Notes under the pieces: generated by a model | Databases searched by the model: none | What the model was told of the DNA's origin: nothing | Seen by the model: the letters and a program-made list of their open reading frames with translations, nothing else | Position numbers and translations under genes: made by a program | From: Acidimicrobiia bacterium | Lineage (GTDB): Bacteria > Actinomycetota > Acidimicrobiia > Spongiisociales > ZC4RG35 | Length of the DNA stretch: 64,000 nt | NCBI GenBank assembly: GCA_036375695.1 | Contig: DASVBU010000007.1 | Location: 5,380 to 69,379 of the forward strand | Reading direction: 5' to 3' | Shown: positions 4,968 through 34,481 of the stretch, one piece after another | Numbering within the stretch: position 1 is the first letter of the stretch | How the letters are laid out: each line of letters opens with the position of its first letter

Positions 4968-6203
4968 TTGACCCATCCAAGGACAGCCACTCTCCGCGAC
5001 CCCGACCTTCCCGAGCTCGCCGTCCTCCTCGGCACCGACGCGCCGCCACCCCTGACGGCCGCGGTCGAGACGCTGCAGGGCGAAGTGGCCTCCTGCCGTG
5101 TGGATCAAGTCTCCTGGTCCCCCGGCAGGAGCGTGGTGGTGCGATATCAGGTCGAGGTGCGAGGCGGCCCCCTGGACGGCACACAACAGTTCGTCGCCGC
5201 CGCCGGGCGGATCCCCCACGGGGCGATGATCATCGAGGACGACGAGGGGCGTCGCGTCGGAGTGTGGCGGTTCCCCCACGATCCGGCTCTGCCCGGTCTG
5301 CCTTCGGCGATCGACCCCGCCGCGGCCGAAGAGGTCCTGGTCGGCCTGGATGGCAAGCCCGGCCCGACCACGACCCATCTCCGCGCCTACCGACCGTCCC
5401 GCCGTGCCGTGGTGGAGGTGCGGGGACCCGAGGAGCGACTCTTCTTCAAGGTCGTCCGTCCCAACGCCATCGAGGGTCTGCACCGCATCCACCGCACACT
5501 CGCCGAAGTGTTGCCGGTGCCGGCGAGTCTCGGTTACGACGAACGGCTCGGCCTGGTGGTGCTCCAGGCGATGCCCGGTATCACGCTCCGCGAGGCCATG
5601 GCCCACCCCGACCTGCCGCTGCCCGAACCCGAGACCGTGGCCGGCCTGGTCGCCGACCTCCCCCGGCCGGACGGGCTCGACGAGGCACATTCCCCGCTGG
5701 ACCGCGCCCAGCGGGCCATCCCGATGGTCATGAGGATCTGCCCCGAGCTCACCGAGCGTCTCGAACGGCTGGCCGAAGGGATCGGCTCCGAGACCCTGCC
5801 CGCCGACCGCCCGGTCCACGGGGACTACTACGAGGCCCAGTTGATGGTCGATGACGGGAAGATCCTCGGGATCCTGGACGTCGACACCTACGGCCTGGGG
5901 CGAGCCGCAGATGACCCTTCCACGATGCTCGCCCATCTCTCGGTGTGGGGGCCCATCAGCCCCCGGCCCGAACGGGTGAGGGAGTACGGAAGCACCCTGG
6001 TGCGGCTGTGGGACTCCGTGGTCGATCCGGTGGACCTCCGTCGCCGCGCCGCGGCGATGTCGTTGCTCCTCGCCACCGGGCCGTTCCGGGTGCAGTCGCG
6101 CAACTGGCCTGACGAAGTCGCGGCGCGGGTGGCCATCGCCGAAACGTGGGTGGAGAGCGCACTGCGGATGGATGAGAGAACTCTCATCCCCTTCTCAGAT
6201 TGA
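4968..6203 (+). CDS. Phosphotransferase-family protein (APH/ChoK-like kinase fold)
   Basis: 411 aa. 'PVHGDYYEAQLMV' and 'LGILDVDTYGLG' are the Brenner motif and DxxxxxG of aminoglycoside/choline kinase-like phosphotransferases. The start codon is TTG. Confidence 0.55.
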   Translation: MTHPRTATLRDPDLPELAVLLGTDAPPPLTAAVETLQGEVASCRVDQVSWSPGRSVVVRYQVEVRGGPLDGTQQFVAAAGRIPHGAMIIEDDEGRRVGVWRFPHDPALPGLPSAIDPAAAEEVLVGLDGKPGPTTTHLRAYRPSRRAVVEVRGPEERLFFKVVRPNAIEGLHRIHRTLAEVLPVPASLGYDERLGLVVLQAMPGITLREAMAHPDLPLPEPETVAGLVADLPRPDGLDEAHSPLDRAQRAIPMVMRICPELTERLERLAEGIGSETLPADRPVHGDYYEAQLMVDDGKILGILDVDTYGLGRAADDPSTMLAHLSVWGPISPRPERVREYGSTLVRLWDSVVDPVDLRRRAAAMSLLLATGPFRVQSRNWPDEVAARVAIAETWVESALRMDERTLIPFSD

Positions 6204-11633: not shown

Positions 11634-11723
11634 GTTTCGATTGTCCGAATGAGCGGAAGAGAAGTCAATGGTTGACGATGAAATAGCGGTGCCGTCGTTG
11701 GAGACCGGCACCGAATCACGGAG

Positions 11724-11814
11724 CGGAGAGGGAGGGATTTGAACCCTCGAAGGGGCTGTATCACCCCTTACTCGCTTAGCAGGCGAGCGCCTTCGACCTC
11801 TCGGCCACCTCTCC
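11724..11814 (-). tRNA. tRNA-Ser (anticodon GCT)
   Basis: Reverse complement GGAGAGGTGGCCGAGAGGTCGAAGGCGCTCGCCTGCTAAGCGAG...GGTTCAAATCCCTCCCTCTCCG. It has a long variable arm and an anticodon loop CTGCTAA. Confidence 0.85.
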
Positions 11815-11850
11815 GGGCCCACATAGCGTACGTGAAAGCCGGCCTCACCC

Positions 11851-12471
11851 CTACTCCGTCGCAGCACGACTGCTGGAGTCGTCTGCCGATCGTCCAGTGA
11901 CCAGCAGCGCGACCGCGATCACGGCCGGCATCACCACGTGCGCCACCGGGAAGTACATGTCGTTGGGGGTGAGAACGAGCAGGCCTACGAGCAGCCCGAG
12001 GTTGAAGACGACAACGATCCAGCCAACCGCCCTCATCCAGCGGATCAGGCCCCATCCGACGCCCGCCTGACCGAGGCAGGCCAGGATCACATAGCCCGCG
12101 GTCAGGGAGCGGGCCTGGAGGATCCGCCAGCCGGCGGCAGAGGCCGCCTCCACGGTGAAGATCAGGAATGCGCCCACCAGGAAGATCAAGGCACCCACCC
12201 TCGCGGTCATCTCACCGGAAACCATGGAGAGCATCCACAACCCGATCGCAGTGACGATCGCCGAGGCGCCGAAGAGGCTGCGCTCGATGTCGTAGAGCAT
12301 CGAGGGGGAGGCAACCTCGGGGCAAGGGCCCAAGCGCAACCCGATCGGGTCACGACAGCCGAAGAGATAGAGGGCGACGGCCATGACCGCGACTCCCACC
12401 AGCAGGAAGACGACCGCAGAGCCAGGAGACGGTCTCGTCCGCCGCCCATCGGATGCCTGTGGCGCGGTCAT
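11851..12471 (-). CDS. Hypothetical integral membrane protein
   Basis: About 206 aa from the internal ATG (MTAPQ...), with several TM helices. The longer ORF in the track overlaps the tRNA and is unlikely to be real. Confidence 0.4.
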   Translation of the reverse strand: MTAPQASDGRRTRPSPGSAVVFLLVGVAVMAVALYLFGCRDPIGLRLGPCPEVASPSMLYDIERSLFGASAIVTAIGLWMLSMVSGEMTARVGALIFLVGAFLIFTVEAASAAGWRILQARSLTAGYVILACLGQAGVGWGLIRWMRAVGWIVVVFNLGLLVGLLVLTPNDMYFPVAHVVMPAVIAVALLVTGRSADDSSSRAATE

Positions 12472-12508
12472 GACACGGCCTTCCTTTCGAAGTGCTCGAA
12501 GCCGTGAG

Positions 12509-12595
12509 CGGAGGGGGTGGGATTTGAACCCACGAGACCCGTGAGGGCCCAACGGTTTTCAAGACCGTCTCCTTCGACCGCTCGGACACCCCTCC
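12509..12595 (-). tRNA. tRNA-Ser (anticodon TGA)
   Basis: Reverse complement GGAGGGGTGTCCGAGCGGTCGAAGGAGACGGTCTTGAAAACCGT...GGTTCAAATCCCACCCCCTCCG. The anticodon loop is CTTGAAA. Confidence 0.85.
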
Positions 12596-12641
12596 AGGTA
12601 ATCCAACGCCGCAGACGCTAGAAGGCATCCCGGAGAAAGGC

Positions 12642-12673
12642 GGAAACCCCCGGAACACATTCCGGGGGTTTCC
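12642..12673 (-). terminator. 14-bp perfect hairpin, likely terminator of the 12690..13055 gene
   Basis: ggaaacccccggaa-caca-ttccgggggtttcc lies 17 nt downstream of the stop on the minus strand. Confidence 0.45.
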
Positions 12674-12689
12674 GCGGAGCGCTATTGGT

Positions 12690-13055
12690 TTAGGGCTGCT
12701 TCTTCGGATTCCCGAACGGAGCCCGATTCGGGTTACAGGAGTCGCCGGGAGCCTCACCAAGAATCGCCTTGGCAGTCTTCACGTCCACTTCCGCGCCATG
12801 CATGATCGCCACCATGAATCGTCCGTAGGACTGAACCTGCGTCGGCTCCTCTTCGGAGATCTCATCGTTCAACCCCGAGAAGGAGCAGATCGAGGCAGCG
12901 CCTGTTCCGCCGAAGAACCCGGCGATTGGCGTTTCCCCTCCGGTGGCGCCGCCCGGTCCGGGTGGGCCTTTCACCTCACCGGCCCAAGCAGCCGGAGCCA
13001 GAGCCATCACCAGAGCCACCAACGCACCCAGCAGGGCAACTCGTTGTCTTGACAT
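12690..13055 (-). CDS. Small secreted hypothetical protein
   Basis: The signal peptide MSRQRVALLGALVALVMALAPAAWA is preceded by a GGGAGG RBS. The mature region is Gly/Pro-rich. Confidence 0.45.
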   Translation of the reverse strand: MSRQRVALLGALVALVMALAPAAWAGEVKGPPGPGGATGGETPIAGFFGGTGAASICSFSGLNDEISEEEPTQVQSYGRFMVAIMHGAEVDVKTAKAILGEAPGDSCNPNRAPFGNPKKQP

Positions 13056-13225
13056 GATCCCTCCCATCGGATCCCACCGCCGGTATGACGGATCGCGAGA
13101 AACTACATGTCCAGCGGGGGGCTTGCGGCCATAATGAACTGGAGATTTCGGCGGTCTGATCAAATGTTTCAGTAGGCCACTTCTTGGTGGATCTGGGTTT
13201 CGCTGGGCTTCGTTAGCCTTTCGAA

Positions 13226-13969
13226 ATGGAACTCTTCGATCGTGAAGAGACATTCGGCGACGACTACCTCTACTTCTACGCCCAGTTCCTCGACGACGAC
13301 CGCAACGCCGCCGACGCGGCGAGAATCGTCGAGGTTCTCGGCCTGACCCCAGGCAACCGCGTCCTGGACGCTCCGTGTGGGCACGGAAGGGTTTCCAATC
13401 TCCTTGCCGCTCACGGCTTGGAGGTGACGGGCATAGACGCCACCCCGGAGTTCATCGAACTCGCAATCGCCGACGCTGCTCGACGAGGGGTCGAGGTGGA
13501 CTATGGGGTCGGCGACCTGCGCGACCTGGGTGTCGACGGGCCGTTCGACGCCGTGGTGTGCTGGTTCACCTCCTTCGGCTACTTCGACGACGCGGGCAAC
13601 AACGCCGTACTCGGGGAGTTCGCTCGCGTTCTGAAACCGGGCGGGAAGTTGGTGATCGACACGCTGCATCATGACGGCTTCGTCCGCCGGTTCGTGCCAG
13701 CTCCGTTCTCCTCGACCAGCTCCAGAGGCGACGACGTGATGATCGACACCACTGAGTTCGATCCGATCACCGGTAGAGCTAGGACCGATCGTGTGGTGCA
13801 TCGAGGTGGCGAGGTGAGGAGGAGCCAGCACACCGTGCGACTCCCCACCATCCCCGAATTCAAGGAATGGCTTGCTTCGGCCGGTTTCGCGGACGTCGTG
13901 TTCTACGGCCGGGACCAAGCCACGCCCACCATCGACGACATGCGAGTCCTTGTAGTGGCGACGAGGTGA
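13226..13969 (+). CDS. Class I SAM-dependent methyltransferase
   Basis: 'VLDAPCGHGRVSNLLA' is motif I, and 'VVCWFTSFGYF' and 'LKPGGKLVID' are post I/II motifs. Confidence 0.7.
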   Translation: MELFDREETFGDDYLYFYAQFLDDDRNAADAARIVEVLGLTPGNRVLDAPCGHGRVSNLLAAHGLEVTGIDATPEFIELAIADAARRGVEVDYGVGDLRDLGVDGPFDAVVCWFTSFGYFDDAGNNAVLGEFARVLKPGGKLVIDTLHHDGFVRRFVPAPFSSTSSRGDDVMIDTTEFDPITGRARTDRVVHRGGEVRRSQHTVRLPTIPEFKEWLASAGFADVVFYGRDQATPTIDDMRVLVVATR

Positions 13970-13992
13970 CCGACTCCACATCAGGGGTTCGA

Positions 13993-14541
13993 ATGGAAGC
14001 CTGGCCAACTCTCATCACGGATCGCCTCGTGTTGCGTCCGCTGGCGATCGAGGACTTGGACGATCTTGCGAAGTTGCACGCTCAGGAATCGTTTTGGCAC
14101 TACCCCTACGGTCGTGGCTGGTCGAGAAGCGAGACCGAATCATTCCTCGCCCGCACCGTGGAGAGCTATCGCGATCCAGGGATAGGGGTGTCCGCGGTTG
14201 TGGTGGCCGAAACCGAGCAGCTAGCCGGATGGGCCGGCCTGTCGGTTCCGGCATTCCTCCCAGAGATCCTTCCGGCGGTCGAGGTCGGATGGAGGCTAGG
14301 CGAGCAGCACCGTGGTATTGGATTCGCTACGGAGGCCGGGCAAGCTTGGGTCCGCTTCGGATTCGAGACACTTGGACTAGATGCGATCGTCAGCATCTGC
14401 CAGCCCGAGAACAGCGAGTCGAAGGCGGTCATGGAGCGCCTCGGGTTCTCCCTCGCACGCGAGACCATCCATCCGGTGCGTGGAGTTCAATTGCAGGTCA
14501 TGTCCCTCACCCGGAACGCTTGGCGCCTGAGCAATGGGTGA
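13993..14541 (+). CDS. GNAT-family N-acetyltransferase (RimJ/RimL-like)
   Basis: 'LVLRPLAIEDLDDLAKLH' and 'EVGWRLGEQHRGIGFATEA' form the acetyl-CoA binding motif A. Confidence 0.7.
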   Translation: MEAWPTLITDRLVLRPLAIEDLDDLAKLHAQESFWHYPYGRGWSRSETESFLARTVESYRDPGIGVSAVVVAETEQLAGWAGLSVPAFLPEILPAVEVGWRLGEQHRGIGFATEAGQAWVRFGFETLGLDAIVSICQPENSESKAVMERLGFSLARETIHPVRGVQLQVMSLTRNAWRLSNG

Positions 14542-14552
14542 CATTGGCTTGG

Positions 14553-14643
14553 CGGAGGGGGTGGGATTCGAACCCACGAGGAGGCGATAACCCCCTACGG
14601 CATTTCGAGTGCCGCGCACTAGACCGGACTATGCGACCCCTCC
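14553..14643 (-). tRNA. tRNA-Ser (anticodon CGA)
   Basis: Reverse complement GGAGGGGTCGCATAGTCCGGTCTAGTGCGCGGCACTCGAAATGCCG...GGTTCGAATCCCACCCCCTCCG. Confidence 0.85.
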
Positions 14644-14666
14644 AACATGCCGACCTTCGGTCGGCT

Positions 14667-14737
14667 GTACCCAGTACCGAGTACTTGGTACGAGGATTCA
14701 ATTGTTCTACGTACCGAGTACCAGGTACTGAGGTACC
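14667..14737. repeat. GTAC-N3-GTAC palindromic motif cluster in the tRNA-Ser spacer (copy A)
   Basis: gtacccagtaccgagtacttggtac and gtaccgagtaccaggtactgaggtacc. The 17-mer gtacccagtaccgagtac recurs at 27265..27282. Confidence 0.4.
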
Positions 14738-14760
14738 GCACCAGCGAAGCTGGTGCACCG

Positions 14761-14851
14761 CGGAGGGAGAGGGATTTGAACCCTCGAGGGGGCGCAAACC
14801 CCCAACGGCATTTCCAGTGCCGCGCACTAGACCGGACTATGCGATCCCTCC
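14761..14851 (-). tRNA. tRNA-Ser (anticodon GGA)
   Basis: Reverse complement GGAGGGATCGCATAGTCCGGTCTAGTGCGCGGCACTGGAAATGCCG...GGTTCAAATCCCTCTCCCTCCG. Confidence 0.85.
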
Positions 14852-24908: not shown

Positions 24909-26861
24909 ATGCAAACCCCCACGGCCCTGACCGAGCGCTACCAGATCACGTCCCACCTCGCCCGGGGGGGCATGGCCGACGTGTACGAGGGGCAGGACAC
25001 CCTTCTCAACCGCCGCGTCGCCATCAAGGTGCTCCACTCCCAGTACTCGTCCGACGAGGCGTTCGTGAAGCGCTTCCGGCGGGAGGCCCAGGCCGCGGCC
25101 AACCTGAGCCACCCCAACATCGTCGGCATCTTCGACTGGGGCCAGGCGCAGAACACCTACTTCATCGTCATGGAGATCGTCGAGGGACGGTCTCTGCGCG
25201 ACGTCCTCAAGTCGGAGGGCGCTCTGCTCCCGAGACGTGCGATCGAGATCGCCGCCGAGACCGCAGCCGCCCTGTCCGTGGCCCACCGGGCCGGTCTCGT
25301 CCATCGCGACGTCAAGCCGGGCAACATCCTCCTCGCCCGCGACGGCACCGTGAAGGTGACGGATTTCGGCATCGCCCGGGCCTGGGACGACAGCCAGGAG
25401 CTCACCCGAACCGGTGCCGTGATCGGCACGGCCACCTACTTCAGCCCGGAGCAGGCCCAGGGCGCTCCCGCCGACGCCCGCAGCGACGTCTACGCGCTGG
25501 GGGTCGTCCTCTACGAGATGCTCACGGGACGCCCGCCATTCCTGGGGGACAGCCCCATGTCGGTGGCGTTCCAGCACGTCTCGGCCGAGGCGCCGGCACC
25601 CTCTTCGCTCAACCCCGACGTCTCCCGTGACCTCGACAACGTCGTGATGAAGGCGCTGCGCAAGGATCCGGCCGCCCGGTACCAGTCCGCGGAGGAGATG
25701 CGTCAGGACCTCCTCTCCGTGCTCGCAGGGGAGCCGATCTCGGCGGAGATCCCGCTGCCGGCCGTCGTCGGCGGCGGTGAGGACGGCACCCGTCTCCTCC
25801 CCTCGATGCCACCGCCCACGGCGCTCCCCGACGAGGTCTACCGCCAGATCGAGGAGGAGCCGCCGTCGCAGGTGCCCTTCATCGTCACGGCCTTCGCCCT
25901 GCTCGCCGCATTGGGAATCCTCGTGTTCTTCCTCTTCCGCAATGCGATCGGGACGGGCGAGGACATGGTCGTCATCCCCGACGTCGCCGGTCAGACGCAG
26001 GACGTGGCCCTTCAGATGCTGCGCGCCGAGGGCTTCGTCCCGATCCCCGTGCCCGAGCCCAACGACGAGATCGAGACCAATGTCGTCATCAGGACCGACC
26101 CGCCCGCCGGTGAGGAGGCACCGGAGGGATCGAGCGTGTCCGTCTACGTGTCCTCCGGACCGGCCGAGGTGGTGGTGCCACCGGTCGTTGGCCAGCCTCT
26201 GGACGAGGCGGAGGAGGCGATCACTGCTGCCGGACTGACCGTGGGACAGGTCACCGAGCGCCCCGACGCCAACTTCGAGGCGGGTGTGGTCCTGGAACAG
26301 TCCCCACCCGGAGGGGTCCGGGTCGGCCGCAATGCCGCCATCAACCTCGTGGTGTCGAGCGGCCCGGAGACCGTGGTGGTGCCCGATGTGGTCGGCAAGT
26401 CCGAGCGTGACGCCACGGCCGAGCTCAACGCCCTCGACCTGCTGGTCCGGCCCCAGGACGAGTACTCGGACGAGGTCCCCGAGGGAATGGTGATCCGGAC
26501 GGATCCCGAGGCCGGCACCGAGGTCACCATCGGCGACACCATCCTGATCGTGGTCTCGCAGGGCCCGGCACCCGTCCAGGTGCCCGATCTGCGGGGCATG
26601 ACGGAGCAGCAGGCGCGTGAGGCCGTCGAAGCCCTGGGGCTGAAGCTCAACGTGGCGGCTGGCCGCCAGCCGGTTGCCGACCCGGCCCAGGACGGGTTGG
26701 TGGTGGCGCAGGTGCCCAACCCCGGTCTGACCGTGGACAAGGGCAGCACGGTGACCATCACGCTGGGGCAGTACCAGGCGCCGCCCACCACGACGACACC
26801 CCCCACCACGACCACCACCCCCGGGCCTCCACCACCTCCGGGACCGCCCGGAAATCCCTAG
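24909..26861 (+). CDS. pknB: Ser/Thr protein kinase PknB with four PASTA domains
   Basis: 650 aa. The kinase motifs are 'VAIKVL', 'VHRDVKPGNILL', 'VTDFGIA' and 'SPEQA'. A TM segment and four PASTA repeats follow (e.g. VPDVAGQ..., VPPVVGQ..., VPDVVGK..., VPDLRGM...). Confidence 0.9.
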   Translation: MQTPTALTERYQITSHLARGGMADVYEGQDTLLNRRVAIKVLHSQYSSDEAFVKRFRREAQAAANLSHPNIVGIFDWGQAQNTYFIVMEIVEGRSLRDVLKSEGALLPRRAIEIAAETAAALSVAHRAGLVHRDVKPGNILLARDGTVKVTDFGIARAWDDSQELTRTGAVIGTATYFSPEQAQGAPADARSDVYALGVVLYEMLTGRPPFLGDSPMSVAFQHVSAEAPAPSSLNPDVSRDLDNVVMKALRKDPAARYQSAEEMRQDLLSVLAGEPISAEIPLPAVVGGGEDGTRLLPSMPPPTALPDEVYRQIEEEPPSQVPFIVTAFALLAALGILVFFLFRNAIGTGEDMVVIPDVAGQTQDVALQMLRAEGFVPIPVPEPNDEIETNVVIRTDPPAGEEAPEGSSVSVYVSSGPAEVVVPPVVGQPLDEAEEAITAAGLTVGQVTERPDANFEAGVVLEQSPPGGVRVGRNAAINLVVSSGPETVVVPDVVGKSERDATAELNALDLLVRPQDEYSDEVPEGMVIRTDPEAGTEVTIGDTILIVVSQGPAPVQVPDLRGMTEQQAREAVEALGLKLNVAAGRQPVADPAQDGLVVAQVPNPGLTVDKGSTVTITLGQYQAPPTTTTPPTTTTTPGPPPPPGPPGNP

Positions 26862-27094
26862 TGGTAGTTGGTGGTCATCGCGAAACCGATCGCGATGGCG
26901 ACCAGCCCGCCGAACATCACGATCTGGTCCAACTGGAAGACGAATCTGGCCAGTACGGCGAGCACGCCCACGATCATGAGCCCGGCCATCATGGCCACGT
27001 ACCAGGTCGGGCTGGGCTCCTTGGCCTTGGACGCCGCCTGTGCAGCCGATGACAGCGGTCGGCTCTTCGGCTTGCGGCGCTTGGATTCGGGCAT
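26858..27094 (-). CDS. crgA: Cell division protein CrgA
   Basis: 78 aa from ATG 27094 (MPESKRRKPK...). It has two TM helices and a C-terminus '...TTNYH', which is the CrgA family pattern. It is convergent with pknB. Confidence 0.7.
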   Translation of the reverse strand: MPESKRRKPKSRPLSSAAQAASKAKEPSPTWYVAMMAGLMIVGVLAVLARFVFQLDQIVMFGGLVAIAIGFAMTTNYH

Positions 27095-27200
27095 GGCGCC
27101 GGCGACGCTAGCGCAAACGACCCACCCCACGAAAGTGACTTACACGCGTGTGATTCTCCACAACCTGTGGAAGATTCCGTGGATAACTACAAGGGTGTAA

Positions 27201-28794: not shown

Positions 28795-29238
28795 TCACCG
28801 ATCCGGCTCCAGATAGCGGGGACCGACCCCGGTCCGCCCCGCGACGTCCTGCGGATTGAGCAGACCGCACCTGTTCATGGACAGGCAGCCACAGCCGATG
28901 CAGGAGTCCAGTTGGTCCCGCAGGAGCTGGAGACGGGCGATCCTCTCGGTGAGCTGGTCACGCCAGACGCTGGAGACTCGCTCCCAATCGGCCTGGCGGG
29001 CGACGCCCGATGGCAGCTCCTCCATCACTGCGGAGATCTCCTCGAGACTCAGGCCGACCCGCTGCGCGGCCCGGATCACGGAGACCCGTCTGATGGTGGA
29101 GCGACGGAAGCGTCTCTGGTTGCCGTCGGTGCGCTCCGATGCGATCAGCCCCTTGTCCTCGTAGAAGCGGAGGGCCGAAGTGGCGACCCCGGTCCGCCTC
29201 GACAGCTCCCCGATGGTGAGCAGATCCGTTGAATCCAT
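28795..29238 (-). CDS. soxR: Redox-sensitive MerR-family regulator SoxR
   Basis: 147 aa with a MerR HTH 'LTIGELSRRTGVATSALRFYEDKGLI' and the [2Fe-2S] cluster motif 'CIGCGCLSMNRCGLLNP'. Confidence 0.85.
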   Translation of the reverse strand: MDSTDLLTIGELSRRTGVATSALRFYEDKGLIASERTDGNQRRFRRSTIRRVSVIRAAQRVGLSLEEISAVMEELPSGVARQADWERVSSVWRDQLTERIARLQLLRDQLDSCIGCGCLSMNRCGLLNPQDVAGRTGVGPRYLEPDR

Positions 29239-29259
29239 GGTCTCCCGAGAATCGACTTG

Positions 29260-29279
29260 ACTTCAAGTTAACTTGAAGT
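29260..29279. promoter_or_regulatory. SoxR box (perfect 20-bp palindrome) in a -35/-10 spacer
   Basis: ACTTCAAGTTAACTTGAAGT is flanked by ttgact (-35-like) and tacgtt (-10-like). It is divergent from soxR and directly upstream of the SDR gene. Confidence 0.7.
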
Positions 29280-29293
29280 TGTACGTTGCGCAC

Positions 29294-29980
29294 ATGATGA
29301 GATGCGCAATAGTGACCGGAGCCTCACGCGGTCTGGGGCTCGCATTGACGAGACAGCTCTCGGCGGACGGTTGGAAGGTGATCGTCGACGCCCGCCACGG
29401 CGACGATCTCGCCGCCGCCACGGCAGAACTCCCGGGTGTGGAGGCCGTCCCCGGGGATGTGGCCGATCCGCTCCACTGGGCAGACCTGATCGAAGCCGTA
29501 CGGGCGGTGGGACGTCTCGACCTCCTCGTGAACAACGCCTCGACACTGGGTCCGACGCCGCTACCGGCGCTCGCCGAGGTGGACCTCGACGAGTTGGCCC
29601 GGGTGTTCGACGTCAACGTCGTCGGGCCACTCGGTCTGATCCAGGCGGCCCTGCCATTGCTCACCGAATCCCACGGCGTGGTCGTCAACGTCACGTCCGA
29701 TGCCGCCGTCGAGGGGTACCCGGGATGGGGCGCCTACGGGGCCTCCAAGGCGGCACTGGAGCAGTTGAGCCGGGTGTTGGCGGCCGAGGAGCCGAGGATC
29801 TCCGTCTACTGGGTCGACCCTGGCGACATGCGGACCCGGATGCATCAGGACGCGGTGGGCGACGAGGACATCTCCCATCTCCCGTCACCCGAGCACAGCG
29901 TCCCCGGGATGATCCGTCTCATCGAAGAGCGGCCGCCTTCGGGCCGATACCAGGTGCAGGGTCTGGAGAGCCCCGTATGA
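29294..29980 (+). CDS. SDR-family oxidoreductase (likely SoxR target)
   Basis: 'AIVTGASRGLGLAL' is the Rossmann TGxxxGxG, 'NNAS' follows, and 'YGASKAALE' is the YxxxK catalytic motif. Probably a leaderless start at ATG 29294. Confidence 0.8.
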   Translation: MMRCAIVTGASRGLGLALTRQLSADGWKVIVDARHGDDLAAATAELPGVEAVPGDVADPLHWADLIEAVRAVGRLDLLVNNASTLGPTPLPALAEVDLDELARVFDVNVVGPLGLIQAALPLLTESHGVVVNVTSDAAVEGYPGWGAYGASKAALEQLSRVLAAEEPRISVYWVDPGDMRTRMHQDAVGDEDISHLPSPEHSVPGMIRLIEERPPSGRYQVQGLESPV

Positions 29981-31014
29981 CGGCTCTGGCGCGGGAGTCC
30001 CTGGCCGAGACCGGCTCCGCCGGTGCGCCGCCGGAGCGCATCGGGCTCCGTCGTGACGGCGTCCGCCTCATGGTGGCCATCGGTGAGGACATCATCCACA
30101 CCCGGTTCTCCCGGATCGGGGAGTTCCTCGACCCGGGCGACGTCCTCGTGGTCAACGTGTCCAGGACCATCCCCGCCTCGTTGGACGGCGAGGCATCGGA
30201 CGGGACCCCGGTGCGCATCCACCTCTCCTCGCCGATCAGCGACACCCTTTGGACGGTCGAGCCACGGCAACCCGTGGGTACGGGCTCGTACCGCTGGGTC
30301 GACTACGACGGTGGTGTGGTCCGTCTTCCGGGTGGGGCGGAGGCGGTGTTGTTCACTCGCGACTCCCGGACGCCGCGTCTCTGGATCGCGGAGTTGCGGG
30401 GTCTCGGCGACACGATGGCGTACCTGCGGGCCTACGGGGCACCCATCCGCTACGCCCACACCAATCGCCCGTGGCCGCTCTCGGACTACCAGAGCGTCTA
30501 CGCCCGGGAGCCCGGCTCGGCGGAGATGCCGAGCGCAGGCCGACCGTTCACCACCAGTCTGCTCACGTCCCTCGTCGCCAACGGTGTGACGATCGCGCCG
30601 ATCGTGCTCCACGCCGGCGTCGCCTCGTTCGAGGAGGGCGAGCTCCCCGACGTCGAGCGCTACCGCGTCCCCGAGACGACGGCGCGGATGATCAACCAGG
30701 CCAGGGAGGCGGGCTCGATGGTGGTGGCGGTCGGGACCACCTCGGTCCGCGCCATCGAGACGGTGACCGACACCAGCGGAGTCGTCCACCCCGGATCGGG
30801 TGTCACCGACCTCATCATCACTGCGGAGCGTGGCGTGCGGGGTGTCGATGGCATCCTCACCGGCTGGCACGAGACCGGCGCATCGCATCTGCAGATGGTC
30901 GAGGGCGTCGCCGGCCGGGACCTCGTGGAACGCGCCCACGCCGAGGCTTCGGCCAACGGGTACCTGCGTCACGAGTTCGGCGACTCGCTGCTGGTGACGC
31001 GGCGGACCACCTGA
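29977..31014 (+). CDS. QueA-like protein (S-adenosylmethionine:tRNA ribosyltransferase-isomerase family)
   Basis: 345 aa. 'VVAVGTTSVRAIE' matches the QueA VGTTSxRxLE signature and 'LHAGVASF' matches LHVGxGTF. The start overlaps the SDR stop. Confidence 0.6.
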   Translation: MTALARESLAETGSAGAPPERIGLRRDGVRLMVAIGEDIIHTRFSRIGEFLDPGDVLVVNVSRTIPASLDGEASDGTPVRIHLSSPISDTLWTVEPRQPVGTGSYRWVDYDGGVVRLPGGAEAVLFTRDSRTPRLWIAELRGLGDTMAYLRAYGAPIRYAHTNRPWPLSDYQSVYAREPGSAEMPSAGRPFTTSLLTSLVANGVTIAPIVLHAGVASFEEGELPDVERYRVPETTARMINQAREAGSMVVAVGTTSVRAIETVTDTSGVVHPGSGVTDLIITAERGVRGVDGILTGWHETGASHLQMVEGVAGRDLVERAHAEASANGYLRHEFGDSLLVTRRTT

Positions 31015-31058
31015 TCCCGGGTTCGTGCCATGATCCACAGGCCCGCGAGAGGAGAGGG

Positions 31059-31634
31059 ATGGTCGACCTGATCTACACCGCCTTCACGTCCATCGACGGA
31101 GTGGTCGAGGCTCCGGGTGGTGAGCCCGGATACCGCAACAGCGGCTGGACCTTCGAGGGGATCGAGTTCGTGCCCGAGGCGTACGAGTTGAAGGGGCGGG
31201 AGCAGGAGGAGGCTGGGGCGCTGATGATGGGACGGGTCAGCTACGAGGCCTTCAGCCCGGTCTGGCCGTCGATCGAGGAGTTCCCCCGCTACAACGCCAT
31301 GCCCAAGTTCGTCGTCTCGACCACCCTCCGGGAGGAGGAGCTGGTCGACAACTGGGGCGAGATCACCATCCTCCGCTCCCTGGACGACGTGGCACGGGTC
31401 AAGGAGGAGTTCCAGGGTGGTCCGATCTCCATCCACGGGTCGGCCACGCTGGCCAGGAGCCTCGGAGACGCCGGCCTCATCGACCGCTACCACCTGCTCG
31501 TCTTCCCCGTGGTACTCGGCGCAGGGAAGCGGATGTGGAGCGACACGGACAAGGACAAGCAGCCGCTTCGTCTCCTCGAGAGCGAGTGCTACTCGAACGG
31601 GATCCAGAAACTGGTCTACGAGGTGGTCCGCTGA
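31059..31634 (+). CDS. Dihydrofolate reductase-like / RibD C-terminal domain protein
   Basis: 191 aa. 'LIYTAFTSIDGVVEAP..MGRVSYEAF' and 'ISIHGSATLARSL...YHLLVFPVVLGAGKRMW' are the RibD_C/YwjB pattern. GAGAGGAGAGG is the RBS. Confidence 0.6.
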   Translation: MVDLIYTAFTSIDGVVEAPGGEPGYRNSGWTFEGIEFVPEAYELKGREQEEAGALMMGRVSYEAFSPVWPSIEEFPRYNAMPKFVVSTTLREEELVDNWGEITILRSLDDVARVKEEFQGGPISIHGSATLARSLGDAGLIDRYHLLVFPVVLGAGKRMWSDTDKDKQPLRLLESECYSNGIQKLVYEVVR

Positions 31635-33361
31635 CCGCGGCTCCGAACGAACCCTGGTGGAAACGTGCCGTCGTCTACCAGGTGTACCCGCGCTCGTTCC
31701 AGGACTCGGATGGCGATGGCGTCGGGGACCTGAAGGGCATCCTCCAACGGGTCGACTACCTCGCCGAGTTGGGTGTGGACGTGGTGTGGCTGTCTCCCGT
31801 CTACCGCAGTCCCCATGACGACGCCGGGTACGACATCTCCGACTATCGGGACATCGACCCCATTTTCGGCACGATGGCCGACCTCGATCGGCTCCTCGAG
31901 GCCCTCCACGAGCGTGGCATCAAGCTGATCATGGACCTGGTGGTGAACCACACCAGCGACGAGCACCCGTGGTTCGTCGAGTCCCGCTCCTCGAGGGACA
32001 ACCCGAAGCGCGACTGGTACTGGTGGCGACCGGCTCGGGAGGGCATGGAGCCGGGAACACCCGGCGCGGAGCCGACGAACTGGGGGTCGTTCTTCGGCGT
32101 GCCGGCGTGGGAGTTCGACCCCCACACCGGCGAGTACTACCTGCATCTGTTCAGCCGCAAGCAGCCCGACCTGAACTGGGAAAACCCCGAGGTGCGACGG
32201 GCGGTGTACGACATGATGCGCTGGTGGCTCGATCGGGGAGTGGACGGCTTCCGGATGGACGTGATCAACTTCATCTCCAAAGACGTCCGGCCCGACGGGT
32301 CCCTACCGGATGTGCCCCCGGAGGGGACGATCTACGGCGGGCCGGCCACGGCGACGATCAACGGCCCCAGGATCCACGAGTTCCTCCAGGAGATGCACCG
32401 GGAGGTGTTCCACGGTCGTCGCGACGGGCTACTCCTCGTCGGCGAGACTCCAGGGGCGACGGTGGAGCACGGCAGGCTTTACACCGACCCCGCCCGCCAC
32501 GAGCTCGACATGATCTTCACCTTCGAGCACATGATGCTGGACCACGGCCCGGACGGGCATTTCGAGCGCATCCCGCTCCGACTCGCCGACCTCAAGGCGA
32601 CCATGACCCGGTGGCAAACCGGTCTGGCGGAGGTGGGCTGGAACGCCCTCTACTGGGACAACCACGACCAGCCTCGCATCGTCTCCCGTTGGGGTGACGA
32701 CGGCCCCTACCGGCGTCAGTCGGCGGCGATGCTCGCCATCATCCTCCACCTCCATCGGGGCACCCCCTTCGTCTACCAGGGCGAGGAGTTGGGGATGACC
32801 AACGCCCGGTTCACCTCGTTCGAGCAGTACCGGGACATCGAGACCCTCAACTTCGTCGCCTTCGAGCGACGACGCGGAGTGCTCAGCGACGAGCAACTGC
32901 TCGCCTGGCTGGCAAACAGCAGCCGGGACAACGCCCGCACCCCGATGCAATGGGATGCCTCGCCCAACGCCGGCTTCACCACCGCACGGCCCTGGATCGA
33001 GGTCAACCCCAACCATGAGCACGTCAACGCCGAGGCGGAGATGGCCGACCCAGACTCCGTCTTCCACACCTACAGGCGGCTCATCTCCTTGCGTCACGAG
33101 GATCCGGTGGTCCAACAGGGCGAGTTCCAACCGCTGCTGGAGGATCACCCTCATGTCTACGCGTTCACCCGCACCATGGGGGCAGAGCAGTTGCTGGTGC
33201 TGGGCAACTTCTCGGGTGACGAGCAGTTCGCCGCCGTAGGTCCGGACTGGGTGGGCTCCCAGCTGGTCCTGGGCAACTACCGGCCGGCGGCCGAGCCACG
33301 GGATGAGGGCGTGACGCTGCGACCGTGGGAGGGATTGGTCCTGCGTCGACAGCTCGGATGA
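31586..33361 (+). CDS. GH13 alpha-glucosidase / oligo-1,6-glucosidase
   Basis: 'WWKRAVVYQVYPRSFQDSDGDGVGDLKGI', 'GVDVVWLSPVY', 'DLVVNHTSDEHPWF', 'GVDGFRMDVINFISK' and 'GETPG' are the GH13 conserved regions. The start is uncertain: no in-frame ATG lies after the upstream stop, so GTG 31586 or CTG 31631 are the candidates. Confidence 0.8.
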   Translation: MLLERDPETGLRGGPLTAAPNEPWWKRAVVYQVYPRSFQDSDGDGVGDLKGILQRVDYLAELGVDVVWLSPVYRSPHDDAGYDISDYRDIDPIFGTMADLDRLLEALHERGIKLIMDLVVNHTSDEHPWFVESRSSRDNPKRDWYWWRPAREGMEPGTPGAEPTNWGSFFGVPAWEFDPHTGEYYLHLFSRKQPDLNWENPEVRRAVYDMMRWWLDRGVDGFRMDVINFISKDVRPDGSLPDVPPEGTIYGGPATATINGPRIHEFLQEMHREVFHGRRDGLLLVGETPGATVEHGRLYTDPARHELDMIFTFEHMMLDHGPDGHFERIPLRLADLKATMTRWQTGLAEVGWNALYWDNHDQPRIVSRWGDDGPYRRQSAAMLAIILHLHRGTPFVYQGEELGMTNARFTSFEQYRDIETLNFVAFERRRGVLSDEQLLAWLANSSRDNARTPMQWDASPNAGFTTARPWIEVNPNHEHVNAEAEMADPDSVFHTYRRLISLRHEDPVVQQGEFQPLLEDHPHVYAFTRTMGAEQLLVLGNFSGDEQFAAVGPDWVGSQLVLGNYRPAAEPRDEGVTLRPWEGLVLRRQLG

Positions 33362-33364
33362 CGG

Positions 33365-33437
33365 TGGAGACGATGGGATTCGAACCCACGACCCCCGGCT
33401 TGCAAAGCCGGTGCTCTTCCAGCTGAGCTACGTCCCC
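33365..33437 (-). tRNA. tRNA-Ala (anticodon TGC)
   Basis: Reverse complement GGGGACGTAGCTCAGCTGGAAGAGCACCGGCTTTGCAAGCCGGGGGTCGTGGGTTCGAATCCCATCGTCTCCA. The G3:U70 identity pair is present. Confidence 0.85.
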
Positions 33438-33557: not shown

Positions 33558-33998
33558 GTGCTCCGGGTGATCCTCAACATCATCTGGCTCCTGTTCGCCG
33601 GGATCGAGCTCGCGGTCGTCTACGTCGTGGGCGGGATCATCCTGTGCCTCACCGTCGTCGGTGTCCCCTTCGGGATCCAACTCTTCAAGCTCGCCGGGTT
33701 CGCCGTGTGGCCGTTCGGGAGGGCTGTGGTGCCGGCGCCGGACTCGAACGCCGCGGTCTCGGCGATCTTCAACATCCTCTGGCTCGTCTTCGTCGGCTGG
33801 TGGCTGGCCCTGCTCCACATCGTGTTCGGGTTGGTCCTGTGCATCACGATCATCGGCATCCCTCTGGGGATCGCCGTCCTCAAGATGACCGGTCTCGCCC
33901 TGTGGCCGTTCGGCCGGACCGTCGTCTTCGTGGACGACGACACACGACTCCCGCCCGGCTCGTACGCGGTGGGGACGCGGCTCGCCCAACCCGCCTGA
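33558..33998 (+). CDS. YccF-like inner membrane protein (DUF307), internally duplicated
   Basis: 146 aa built from two homologous halves, 'LNIIWLLFAGIELAVVYVVGGIILCLTVVGVPFGIQLFKLAGFAVWPFGR' and 'FNILWLVFVGWWLALLHIVFGLVLCITIIGIPLGIAVLKMTGLALWPFGR'. Confidence 0.65.
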   Translation: MLRVILNIIWLLFAGIELAVVYVVGGIILCLTVVGVPFGIQLFKLAGFAVWPFGRAVVPAPDSNAAVSAIFNILWLVFVGWWLALLHIVFGLVLCITIIGIPLGIAVLKMTGLALWPFGRTVVFVDDDTRLPPGSYAVGTRLAQPA

Positions 33999-34043
33999 CC
34001 GTCTTGGGCTTGTCCCGGCAGCCGCTCTAGGGTCGTTGGCACC

Positions 34044-34481
34044 ATGCCAGAGCAGGAGAAGGTCTACGACTCCCCATCATCATGGGTCGCCGACCACATC
34101 CGCGACTACGTGGAGACGGGCGGCGAGAAGGGTCACGAATGGCGCCCCGGCGTGCCATCGCTCCTCTTGACCACCCGAGGCCGCAGGACCGGCAAACTGC
34201 GTCGCTCGGCTCTCATATACGGGCGGATGGGCGACGCCTACGTGGTCGTCGCCTCCAAGGGCGGCGCCCCCACCCACCCCATGTGGTACCTCAACCTCAA
34301 GGCCAACCCGGACGTCGAGGTGCAAGTCGGCTCCGAGGTGTTCCAGGCCACCGCCCGGGATGCGACCGAGGACGAACGGCCCTTCCTCTGGGAGCAGATG
34401 GTGTCGATCTGGCCGGCCTACGACGACTACCAGGAGAGGACCACGCGTCGCATCCCGCTCCTTGTGATCGAACCCAAATAG
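34044..34481 (+). CDS. Deazaflavin(F420)-dependent nitroreductase-family protein (Ddn-like, PNPOx split-barrel)
   Basis: 145 aa. 'LLLTTRGRRTGKLRRSALIYGRMGDAYVVVASKGGAPTHPMWYLNLKANPDVEVQVG' is the DUF385/Ddn family pattern. Confidence 0.65.
   Translation: MPEQEKVYDSPSSWVADHIRDYVETGGEKGHEWRPGVPSLLLTTRGRRTGKLRRSALIYGRMGDAYVVVASKGGAPTHPMWYLNLKANPDVEVQVGSEVFQATARDATEDERPFLWEQMVSIWPAYDDYQERTTRRIPLLVIEPK

What the first reader, a model, noticed from the sequence alone, without database searches (positions are those of the whole stretch)
28795..31634. SoxR with a perfect SoxR box driving an SDR / QueA-like / DHFR-like operon
A 20-bp perfect palindrome, ACTTCAAGTTAACTTGAAGT, sits between a -35-like ttgact and a -10-like tacgtt. 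That is the classical SoxR-box geometry, in which the operator occupies an over-long promoter spacer. It is divergent from soxR (CIGCGCLSMNRCGLLNP cluster motif). The three downstream genes are tightly coupled, with overlapping stop and start codons for the first two, so the QueA-like and DHFR-like genes are probably members of the SoxR regulon.
Basis: partly seen in the sequence, partly recalled or inferred. Interest (0 to 1): 0.5.

Follow-up and report, generated by a model that had tools for sequence, protein, structure and literature searches.

The report
SoxR switch driving SDR–QueA-paralog operon
A textbook redox-sensing SoxR regulator and its operator sit in front of a two-gene unit, a short-chain dehydrogenase plus an uncharacterised relative of the tRNA enzyme QueA; the switch is ordinary, but this gene pair recurs under SoxR control in several bacterial phyla and nobody knows what it does.

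Summary
The perfect 20-bp palindrome ACTTCAAGTTAACTTGAAGT (29260-29279) is unique in the window. It matches the E. coli SoxR box at 16 of 18 positions. It lies between TTGACT and TACGTT, which are 19 bp apart, and it is divergent from a gene that passes the SoxR equivalog model and has all four cluster cysteines.

The SDR ATG lies 6 nt after the -10, so the mRNA is probably leaderless.

Comparison with about 90 related loci changes the interpretation:
- The conserved unit is SDR plus a QueA paralog. An EcaC/SnoaL-like gene sometimes precedes it.
- 24 distinct loci from Actinomycetota, Deinococcota and Sericytochromatia carry the same promoter geometry in front of this unit.
- The 'QueA-like' gene is a deep paralog, not a QueA equivalog. 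It is 33-38% identical to solved QueAs, and 17 family-invariant positions differ.
- The DHFR-like (RibD_C) gene is not a conserved member. The closest syntenic relative lacks both it and the following GH13 gene. Here it could only be expressed by read-through.

Verdict: a new member of a known regulatory kind, with an uncharacterised and interesting cargo.

The parts
28795..29238 (-). soxR: 147-aa MerR-family [2Fe-2S] redox-sensing activator
   Evidence: Pfam MerR_1, MerR and MerR-DNA-bind. NCBIfam TIGR01950 SoxR equivalog 199.4 bits vs cutoff 116.9. Full-length match to E. coli SoxR 2ZHG, E 5.6e-42, with CIGCGCLSxxxC conserved.
29257..29262 (+). -35 hexamer TTGACT of the SDR-operon promoter; overlaps the left arm of the box
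   Evidence: Read from the sequence. TTGAC[TC] is invariant in 24 of 24 homologous promoters.
29260..29279 (.). SoxR box: perfect 20-bp palindrome ACTTCAAGTTAACTTGAAGT
   Evidence: Unique in the window, none in shuffles. Its core 18 bp matches the E. coli consensus CCTCAAGTTAACTTGAGG at 16 of 18 positions (consensus from PMC4411124). A PWM built only from other loci scores it 53.9 bits. No other site in the window exceeded 8 bits apart from its own reverse complement (16.9). The maximum in shuffles was 10.4.
29282..29287 (+). -10 hexamer TACGTT, 19 nt downstream of the -35
   Evidence: Read from the sequence. The 19-nt spacing, and A at position 2 and T at position 6 of the -10, hold in 24 of 24 homologous promoters.
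29294..29980 (+). Classical short-chain dehydrogenase/reductase, 228 aa; probably translated from a leaderless mRNA (the ATG begins 7 nt after the last base of the -10)
   Evidence: Pfam adh_short, 7e-42. TGASRGLG, NNAS and YGASK motifs are visible in the translation. A homologue lies directly upstream of the QueA paralog in nearly all of the 80 genome loci (tblastn hits in 77).
29977..31014 (+). QueA paralog, 345 aa (PF02547 fold, not a QueA equivalog); start overlaps the SDR stop (ATGA)
   Evidence: Pfam PF02547, 1.7e-63. NCBIfam QueA models score 151 and 130 bits against cutoffs of 324 and 267. 33-38% identity to solved QueAs. 17 invariant positions differ from the canonical enzymes. AF2 model pLDDT 92; only QueA structures match it.
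31059..31634 (+). RibD_C ('DHFR-like') reductase, 191 aa: an accessory, lineage-specific gene, possibly expressed by read-through
   Evidence: Pfam PF01872, 1.4e-25, with no NCBIfam match. Absent from the other related loci and from syntenic L090. Present in near-identical strains L086-L089.
31586..33361 (+). GH13 alpha-glucosidase/trehalose-6-phosphate-hydrolase-like gene; start uncertain (GTG 31586 overlaps RibD_C; gene callers also chose GTG 31682)
   Evidence: Pfam Alpha-amylase, 2.7e-164; above the cutoff of the NF008183 phosphotrehalase subfamily (626 vs 535 bits) but below the TIGR02403 TreC equivalog (665 vs 799). Gene calls in L086-L089. Not part of the conserved module.
33363..33437 (-). 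Convergent tRNA-Ala(TGC) that bounds the co-directional gene run
   Evidence: ARAGORN. A convergent tRNA-like sequence, read by eye and not run through ARAGORN, directly follows the QueA paralog in L090.

Best explanation
This is a self-contained SoxR cassette. SoxR, a MerR-type [2Fe-2S] redox sensor, binds as a dimer to the palindrome. The palindrome fills the over-long 19-bp spacer of the promoter TTGACT-N19-TACGTT. By analogy with characterised SoxR promoters, reduced SoxR holds the promoter inactive. SoxR oxidised by redox-cycling compounds untwists the spacer so that RNA polymerase can start.

Transcription probably begins at or next to the A of the SDR ATG (29294), giving a leaderless mRNA. 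That mRNA encodes a translationally coupled pair: a classical SDR and a QueA paralog. The same bound SoxR probably represses the divergent soxR promoter.

The SDR/QueA-paralog pair is the real, evolutionarily conserved SoxR target. The RibD_C and GH13 genes downstream are a lineage-specific insertion and can only be affected by read-through.

What is shown:
- the identity of SoxR;
- the sequence and geometry of the box;
- conservation of the box in front of this gene pair across phyla;
- the paralog status of the QueA-like gene.

What is inferred:
- binding and activation by oxidised SoxR;
- the transcription start;
- autorepression of soxR;
- the chemistry of the enzymes.

My best guess for the chemistry is that the paralog uses S-adenosylmethionine in a QueA-type reaction on a substrate other than preQ1-tRNA, and that the SDR acts on the substrate or product, as part of handling redox-active small molecules.
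For: - SoxR identity.
- Box: unique perfect palindrome, and 16 of 18 matches to the E. coli consensus, placed in a 19-bp spacer as in characterised SoxR promoters (PMC4411124; S. coelicolor promoter architecture, PMC4146615).
- Comparative evidence: 24 distinct promoters share TTGAC[TC], a 19-nt spacer and an xAxxxT -10 directly upstream of SDR/QueA-paralog or EcaC-like/SDR/QueA-paralog operons.
- 22 of 24 regex hits in 1.33 Mb of related loci lie at exactly that place.
- All 17 distinct adjacent regulators, the window's included, carry CIGCGCLSxxxC.
- The box is kept in six loci without an adjacent soxR.
- SoxR-linked modules fall in three separate subclades of the paralog family. All 9 members of the window's subclade have the box, including Trueperaceae and Deinococcaceae.
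- In 13 of 24 promoters the start codon follows the -10 by about 6-8 nt.
- SDR/QueA-paralog coupling: ATGA overlap here, and adjacency in nearly all of the 80 genome loci.
- The optional first gene matches TIGR02246, the SgcJ/EcaC family. NCBI's name for that family refers to EcaC, and the SoxR-regulated S. coelicolor gene SCO1178 is called ecaC.
Against: - There is no experimental evidence of any kind. All SoxR-linked examples are metagenome-assembled genomes.
- The -10 (TACGTT) is only a TAnnnT match, and the transcription start is inferred.
- About three quarters of the paralog loci examined have no SoxR or box. They sit next to a GAF-kinase/NarL-type two-component system (13 loci) or a SufR-like gene (11 loci). 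SoxR control is therefore one of several regulatory solutions, not a defining property of the module.
- The enzymatic function is a guess. I could not test whether the same genomes also carry Tgt and a canonical QueA.
Confidence: 0.75

Rival explanations
1. The QueA-like gene is a genuine, divergent QueA, so SoxR puts the queuosine tRNA modification under redox control. The SDR would then act on epoxyqueuosine-tRNA.
For: Full-length PF02547 match and QueA fold. 51 of 94 family-conserved positions are identical to canonical QueAs. Links between Q34 and oxidative stress or the SoxR regulon have been reported, though indirectly via RsxA translation in V. cholerae (PMC11703503).
Against: - It scores far below both QueA equivalog cutoffs (151 vs 324 bits; 130 vs 267 bits).
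- Canonical QueAs from three phyla are 54-59% identical to each other. All 92 paralog loci are only 33-38% identical to them, and that includes the Thermaceae locus compared with Thermus QueA.
- 17 invariant positions inside the shared motifs are changed: AAPTAGLHF becomes EMPSAGRPF, TNFHLPxSTLL becomes GWHExxASHL, and FSFGD becomes HEFGD.
- No tgt or other queuosine gene appears in any annotated neighbourhood, and a memory-based motif scan gave no credible Tgt match (no GGLxVGE match; only two partial DSVxP[ST]R matches, L028 and L030).
- Hydride transfer by an SDR does not fit epoxide-to-alkene deoxygenation (reasoning from known chemistry).
Confidence: 0.15
2. The whole co-directional run (SDR, QueA paralog, RibD_C, GH13) is one SoxR-dependent operon in this organism. 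This is close to what the first reader proposed for the first three genes.
For: Only 44 nt separate the QueA paralog from RibD_C, and no terminator-like site is predicted there. RibD_C has its own Shine-Dalgarno sequence. GH13 abuts or overlaps RibD_C. The arrangement is kept in four near-identical strains.
Against: RibD_C and GH13 are absent at this position in the closest syntenic relative, L090. No homologue of the window's RibD_C or GH13 was found by tblastn in any other related locus; L001 carries a divergent PF01872 gene on the opposite strand. A sugar hydrolase has no obvious place in a redox-stress response. An internal promoter cannot be excluded, because actinobacterial promoters are poorly predicted.
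Confidence: 0.4
3. The palindrome serves only for autoregulation of soxR, or belongs to a non-redox MerR-type regulator. The SDR operon would then be expressed independently.
For: The box also overlaps the expected soxR promoter. SoxR proteins are known to autorepress (PMC4411124).
Against: The -35/-10 pair with the diagnostic 19-nt spacer faces the SDR gene. This geometry is conserved in 24 of 24 loci, including six where no soxR is adjacent and autoregulation cannot explain it. The regulator passes the SoxR equivalog and scores far below every metal-sensing MerR model.
Confidence: 0.05

Closest known systems
E. coli soxR-soxS and S. maltophilia soxR-mfsA divergent promoters
   Same: soxR is divergent. 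A single inverted repeat of the CCTCAAGTTAACTTGAGG type lies between the -35 and -10 hexamers, which are 19 bp apart. One site probably activates the target and represses soxR (PMC4411124).
   Different: The target is neither a second regulator (soxS) nor an efflux pump. It is an SDR plus a QueA paralog. The intergenic region is only 55 bp and the target mRNA is probably leaderless.
SoxR regulons of Streptomyces coelicolor and Pseudomonas aeruginosa
   Same: SoxR acts directly on a handful of genes for redox enzymes and transporters that are thought to process redox-active metabolites (PMC4146615). In sister loci the operon starts with a gene of the SgcJ/EcaC family (TIGR02246); NCBI's family name refers to EcaC, and the S. 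coelicolor SoxR target SCO1178 is called ecaC.
   Different: No QueA-family gene is listed among the six S. coelicolor targets or the P. aeruginosa targets described there. I found no paper linking SoxR to a QueA homologue as a target.
QueA (tRNA preQ1(34) S-adenosylmethionine ribosyltransferase-isomerase)
   Same: Same Pfam family over the full length and the same two-domain fold. About half of the family-conserved positions are shared, including YQ.VY, GS..P.AG..F, LH.G, VGTT..R..E and GD.
   Different: It fails the equivalog cutoffs and forms a deep separate clade. It carries 17 fixed substitutions in the conserved motifs, many of them introducing charge or histidine. It is almost always coupled to an SDR, never seen next to tgt, and placed under stress-type regulators.

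Membership tests
SoxR (MerR-family [2Fe-2S] redox sensor) | N-terminal MerR helix-turn-helix plus coiled-coil dimerisation region | tested here: met
   PF13411, PF00376 and PF09278. Aligned over residues 6-146 to E. coli SoxR 2ZHG.
SoxR (MerR-family [2Fe-2S] redox sensor) | C-terminal CX2CXCX5C cluster-binding motif | tested here: met
   CIGCGCLSMNRC in the translation, aligned to CIGCGCLSRSDC of E. coli SoxR.
SoxR (MerR-family [2Fe-2S] redox sensor) | Scores above the curated equivalog cutoff and above other MerR subfamilies | tested here: met
   TIGR01950 scores 199.4 bits vs cutoff 116.9. CueR, ZntR, CadR and MerR models score at most 62 bits, far below their cutoffs.
SoxR (MerR-family [2Fe-2S] redox sensor) | Binds a [2Fe-2S] cluster and activates transcription only when oxidised | not testable with these tools
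   Needs protein biochemistry or genetics.
SoxR-dependent promoter (soxbox) | Inverted repeat matching CCTCAAGTTAACTTGAGG | tested here: met
   CTTCAAGTTAACTTGAAG at 29261-29278 matches at 16 of 18 positions. The two differences are symmetric (consensus from PMC4411124).
SoxR-dependent promoter (soxbox) | Box lies between -35 and -10 hexamers separated by an over-long (19-bp) spacer | tested here: met
   TTGACT-N19-TACGTT. The same spacing is seen in 24 of 24 homologous promoters.
SoxR-dependent promoter (soxbox) | SoxR binding and redox-dependent activation | not testable with these tools
   Needs EMSA or footprinting, in vitro transcription, or reporter assays.
QueA (tRNA preQ1(34) SAM ribosyltransferase-isomerase) | PF02547 domain and QueA two-domain fold | tested here: met
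   PF02547, 1.7e-63, covering 12-322 of 322 profile positions. AF2 model pLDDT 92. Foldseek matches only 1YY3, 1VKY and 1WDI, with E from 1e-21 to 1e-23.
QueA (tRNA preQ1(34) SAM ribosyltransferase-isomerase) | Scores above the curated QueA equivalog cutoffs | tested here: not met
   NF001140 scores 151 vs 324 bits, TIGR00113 scores 130 vs 267.45, and NF002398 scores 81 vs 588.
QueA (tRNA preQ1(34) SAM ribosyltransferase-isomerase) | Canonical invariant motif residues (AAPTAGLHF, TNFHLP.STLL, F.SFGDAMLI) | tested here: not met
   17 positions invariant in the paralog family differ from residues conserved in 1VKY, 1WDI and 1YY3. Only three canonical sequences were compared.
QueA (tRNA preQ1(34) SAM ribosyltransferase-isomerase) | Occurs with Tgt and the preQ1 pathway in the same genome, often next to tgt | tested here: inconclusive
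   No tgt or que genes appear in any annotated neighbourhood, and a memory-based motif scan of all loci and the window gave no credible Tgt match (no GGLxVGE match; only two partial DSVxP[ST]R matches, L028 and L030).
QueA (tRNA preQ1(34) SAM ribosyltransferase-isomerase) | Converts preQ1-tRNA to epoxyqueuosine-tRNA using SAM | not testable with these tools
   Needs an enzyme assay or complementation of a queA mutant.
Classical short-chain dehydrogenase/reductase | TGxxxGxG cofactor motif, NNAx, catalytic Ser and YxxxK | tested here: met
   TGASRGLG, NNAS, TSDAA and YGASK in the translation. PF00106, 7e-42. No specific NCBIfam equivalog is reached.
RibD_C / DHFR-like reductase as a member of this operon module | Conserved linkage to the SDR/QueA-paralog unit | tested here: not met
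   PF01872 is present here. tblastn found no homologue in 85 related loci, and it is absent in syntenic L090. L001 has a divergent PF01872 gene 1.5 kb away on the opposite strand.

The most novel reading that the evidence does not exclude
The SDR/QueA-paralog pair is an unrecognised, redox-stress-induced enzyme system. A QueA-type enzyme would use S-adenosylmethionine as a 'ribosyl' (carbocycle) donor on a substrate other than preQ1-tRNA, for example a redox-active amine-bearing small molecule or another macromolecule. The SDR would complete the transformation. SoxR, SufR-linked and GAF-kinase-linked versions would then be alternative ways of wiring the same protective or detoxifying chemistry. 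This would be the first second function for the QueA fold.
Probability: 0.35. Interest if true: 0.75.

Novelty: new member of a known kind. Interest (0 to 1): 0.5.

Why it matters
As regulation, this is a clean but ordinary SoxR switch. It adds Acidimicrobiia and Deinococcota examples and shows that SoxR promoters can drive leaderless mRNAs.

The value lies in the cargo. QueA has only one known reaction, which is one of the oddest uses of S-adenosylmethionine. Here a deep paralog family with a re-tooled set of invariant residues is found in at least several hundred species genomes. It is almost always translationally coupled to one SDR, and it is repeatedly placed under redox or Fe-S stress regulators.

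That gives a concrete, testable lead for enzyme discovery. It also gives a predicted inducing condition (redox-cycling compounds) for organisms that are otherwise known only as metagenome bins.

Tried and rejected
- Other SoxR boxes in the window: none, either at up to 3 mismatches or with a PWM.
- Generic sigma-70 promoter scan: it finds nothing, because it excludes 19-nt spacers.
- RibD_C as a conserved module member: rejected.
- Canonical queA or tgt near the paralog: none in 92 loci plus the window. The Tgt motifs were written from memory, so this negative is weak.
- Co-occurrence with canonical QueA/Tgt in the same genomes could not be tested.
- Literature: I found no paper on a QueA paralog or on SoxR controlling a QueA homologue. 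The library does not hold Dietrich et al. 2008, so its supplementary soxbox lists could not be checked. Nothing was found on PDB 8JSV, the closest solved RibD_C relative.
- The afdb50 fold library was unavailable, so I could not list cultured organisms with the paralog that way.
- A first automatic gene-picking pass was discarded. The QueA frame stays open across the SDR gene and masked it. The pass was redone anchored on tblastn hits.
- No SDR/QueA-paralog fusion proteins were seen among the top 120 homologues.
Full report
**1. The observation.**

The sequence at 29200-29300 reads ...CAT (soxR start, minus strand, 29238) ggtctcccgagaatcgac TTGACT TCAAGTTAACTTGAAGTTG TACGTT gcgcac ATG ATG....
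- The 20-bp palindrome ACTTCAAGTTAACTTGAAGT occupies 29260-29279.
- It is the only match in the 64-kb window at up to three mismatches, and no match occurred in 100 dinucleotide-preserving shuffles.
- TTGACT (29257-29262) and TACGTT (29282-29287) are separated by 19 nt.
- The generic promoter scanner reports nothing there, because it only accepts 16-18 nt spacers.
- The box core CTTCAAGTTAACTTGAAG matches the E. coli SoxR-box consensus CCTCAAGTTAACTTGAGG at 16 of 18 positions, and the two differences are symmetric.
- A box between -35 and -10 in a 19-bp spacer is the published signature of SoxR-activated promoters (PMC4411124; the same architecture is described for the S. coelicolor targets in PMC4146615).

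**2. The regulator.**

The divergent ORF 28795-29238 (147 aa) has MerR HTH and dimerisation domains.
- It scores 199.4 bits on the SoxR equivalog model TIGR01950, whose cutoff is 116.9. Every metal-sensing MerR model scores far below its own cutoff.
- It aligns over its full length to E. coli SoxR (PDB 2ZHG, E 5.6e-42), including CIGCGCLSxxxC.
- It is SoxR by every sequence criterion I could test.

**3. The genes downstream.**

- Gene 1 (29294-29980) is a classical SDR with TGASRGLG, NNAS and YGASK. Its ATG begins 7 nt after the last base of the -10 hexamer, so the mRNA is most likely leaderless.
- Gene 2 (29977-31014) overlaps it by ATGA and is a full-length PF02547 protein.
- Gene 3 (31059-31634) is a RibD_C/DHFR-like protein. 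It starts 44 nt further on, and no terminator-like site was found in between.
- A GH13 glycosidase follows without a gap. Its start is ambiguous (GTG 31586 overlaps RibD_C, and gene callers on sister contigs chose either that or GTG 31682).
- A convergent tRNA-Ala at 33363-33437 closes the run.

**4. The 'QueA-like' gene is a paralog family, not QueA.**

- It scores 151 and 130 bits on the two main QueA equivalog models, whose cutoffs are 324 and 267.
- The three solved QueAs (Thermotoga, Thermus, Bacillus) are 54-59% identical to each other. Every one of 92 paralog loci is only 33-38% identical to them. That includes loci from Thermaceae, Deinococcaceae and Trueperaceae.
- Within the paralog family, identity across phyla is 46-65%.
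- Of 94 positions that are at least 90% conserved in 48 paralogs, 51 are the same in canonical QueAs. Seventeen are conserved but different: AAPTAGLHF becomes EMPSAGRPF, F-R..H-M becomes F-E..E-P, TNFHLPxSTLL becomes TGWHExxASHL, and FSFGD becomes HEFGD.
- An AlphaFold model is confident (pLDDT 92) and matches only QueA structures.
- So the fold and about half of the conserved positions are kept, while the motif residues are re-tooled. This points to a changed substrate or changed chemistry.
- The two paralog-specific motifs were found in at least 596 stretches of the one-genome-per-species collection. The hits come from Actinomycetota, Chloroflexota, Deinococcota and Sericytochromatia.

**5. 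What is conserved around it.**

- In the 80 best genome loci and 7 further contigs, an SDR homologue lies immediately upstream of the paralog in nearly all cases where sequence is available. It usually overlaps the paralog or lies within a few tens of nt. In about 10 loci an extra small gene is inserted between the two.
- No homologue of the window's RibD_C or GH13 was found in the 85 loci compared.
- The closest syntenic relative, L090, has a paralog 75% identical to the window's. It runs thiolase-soxR-SDR-paralog and then goes straight to a convergent tRNA-like sequence and on to yccF. It has no RibD_C or GH13.
- Four near-identical strains keep RibD_C and GH13.
- The conserved unit is therefore the SDR plus the QueA paralog. 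RibD_C and GH13 are an insertion specific to this lineage.

**6. Is the SoxR link more than a local accident? Yes.**

- A divergent regulator with CIGCGCLSxxxC lies directly upstream in 17 distinct loci, the window included, and also in syntenic L090, whose regulator was seen only as Pfam MerR domains.
- In total, 24 distinct promoters share TTGAC[TC], a 19-nt spacer containing a SoxR-type inverted repeat, and an xAxxxT -10.
- Six of them have no soxR within 4 kb (L001, L002, L006, L011, L091, L092). Five of those start the operon with a SnoaL-like gene; in L011 the box sits directly before the SDR gene. The L002 representative matches the SgcJ/EcaC family TIGR02246, and the SoxR-regulated S. 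coelicolor gene SCO1178 is called ecaC.
- A simple regex for the -35/left arm hits 24 times in 1.33 Mb of related loci. Of these, 22 lie exactly in front of the operon.
- A PWM built without the window scores the window site 53.9 bits, against a maximum of 10.4 in shuffles.
- The SoxR-linked modules fall in three separate subclades of the paralog family. All nine members of the window's subclade have the box, including two Deinococcota members whose paralog is 64-65% identical. This suggests that the soxR-SDR-paralog cassette moves as a unit.
- In 13 of 24 promoters the start codon follows the -10 by 6-8 nt (leaderless type). The others have a leader with a Shine-Dalgarno sequence.

**7. Other regulatory contexts.**

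About three quarters of the paralog loci have no SoxR box.
- Thirteen are preceded by a cytoplasmic GAF-domain histidine kinase plus a NarL-type response regulator.
- Eleven are immediately followed by a SufR-like gene (99 bits on the cyanobacterial SufR model, below its cutoff).
- SoxR and the SufR-like gene (if it is a true SufR) point to redox or Fe-S stress; what the GAF kinase senses is unknown. This is circumstantial.

**8. Mechanism.**

Shown:
- SoxR identity;
- box sequence and geometry;
- cross-phylum conservation of the box in front of the SDR/paralog unit;
- paralog status of the QueA-like gene;
- non-conservation of RibD_C.

Inferred from established SoxR biology:
- Reduced SoxR occupies the box without activating. 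One-electron oxidation of its [2Fe-2S] clusters by redox-cycling compounds remodels the 19-bp spacer and switches on transcription.
- The same site represses soxR.

Inferred from spacing:
- a leaderless start at about 29294.

Guessed:
- The paralog performs a QueA-type SAM-dependent reaction on something other than preQ1-tRNA, and the SDR acts before or after it.
- I put the genuine-QueA alternative at about 0.15 (reasons in section 4). In addition, no queuosine genes were seen nearby. The published Q34/SoxR connection in V. cholerae is indirect and runs the other way (PMC11703503).

**9. Comparison with the known, and novelty.**

- The switch is a new member of the well-known SoxR/soxbox kind. 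It is closest in layout to soxR-soxS and soxR-mfsA, and closest in logic to the small direct regulons of Streptomyces and Pseudomonas.
- The cargo is what is unreported in the library I could search. No paper describes a QueA paralog, or a QueA homologue as a SoxR target.
- The key comparative paper of 2008 could not be read, so prior listing in its supplementary tables cannot be excluded.

**10. Verdict.**

It is right about SoxR, the box and the QueA-like gene. It is wrong, or at best strain-specific, about the DHFR-like gene, and it needs the qualifier that the QueA-like gene is a distinct paralog.
- Interest is moderate (0.5). The regulation is ordinary, but the conserved and uncharacterised enzyme pair now has a predicted inducer.

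Noticed in passing
window 31535-31700: The GH13 gene has no ATG, GTG or TTG near its conserved N-terminal WWK motif. The candidates are GTG 31586 (overlapping RibD_C by 49 nt), GTG 31535, GTG 31682 (which cuts off the motif), or a CTG at 31631 that overlaps the RibD_C stop as CTGA. Gene callers on sister contigs disagree.
   Followed up: partly
window 33558-34481: Just beyond the tRNA-Ala lie a YccF membrane protein (33558-33998) and an F420H2-dependent quinone reductase (PF04075, 34044-34481). The latter is another quinone-handling enzyme close to the SoxR cassette. It has no SoxR box of its own.
   Followed up: partly
window 25029-27130: A PknB-type PASTA Ser/Thr kinase and CrgA lie upstream of the thiolase. 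This is a kinase-CrgA cell-division gene pair, and it is also seen in syntenic L090.
   Followed up: no
window 11723-14851: Four tRNA-Ser genes (anticodons GCT, TGA, CGA, GGA) all lie on the minus strand within about 3 kb.
   Followed up: no
L026, L035, L043, L046, L052, L055, L062, L068, L070, L081 (about 4990-5750 in each) and L016: In 11 Acidimicrobiia/Actinomycetota loci a SufR-like regulator lies next to the unit: in ten it starts at or overlapping the end of the QueA paralog, on the same strand, and in L016 it is upstream and divergent. This links the SDR/paralog unit to the Fe-S assembly regulator.
   Followed up: partly
L007, L015, L019, L042, L044, L047, L057, L061, L066, L069, L071, L083 and others (upstream 0.7-2.6 kb): A cytoplasmic GAF-domain histidine kinase and a NarL-type response regulator precede the SDR/paralog unit in 13 loci (Rubrobacteraceae, Solirubrobacterales, Anaerolineae and others). 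This is an alternative regulatory wiring of the same module.
   Followed up: partly
L054 2880-3110: In a Streptosporangiaceae MAG the soxR-to-box intergenic region is expanded to about 250 nt by a degenerate tandem array of units about 15 nt long (CTGTGTCAGTCATCG-like).
   Followed up: no
L004 and L014 (Trueperaceae, Deinococcaceae): The Deinococcota soxR-SDR-paralog cassettes are 64-65% (paralog) and 64% (SoxR) identical to the Acidimicrobiia window. That is closer than most Acidimicrobiia copies (about 50%). Their box is a near-direct repeat, ACTTGAAGTTTACTTGAAGT, rather than a perfect palindrome. This suggests horizontal transfer of the whole cassette.
   Followed up: partly
L007, L078, L083, L085 (between SDR and paralog): A small gene of about 125 aa is inserted between the SDR and the QueA paralog in Rubrobacteraceae loci. 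I took it to be glyoxalase/VOC-like by eye. It had no NCBIfam match, and its family is unverified.
   Followed up: partly
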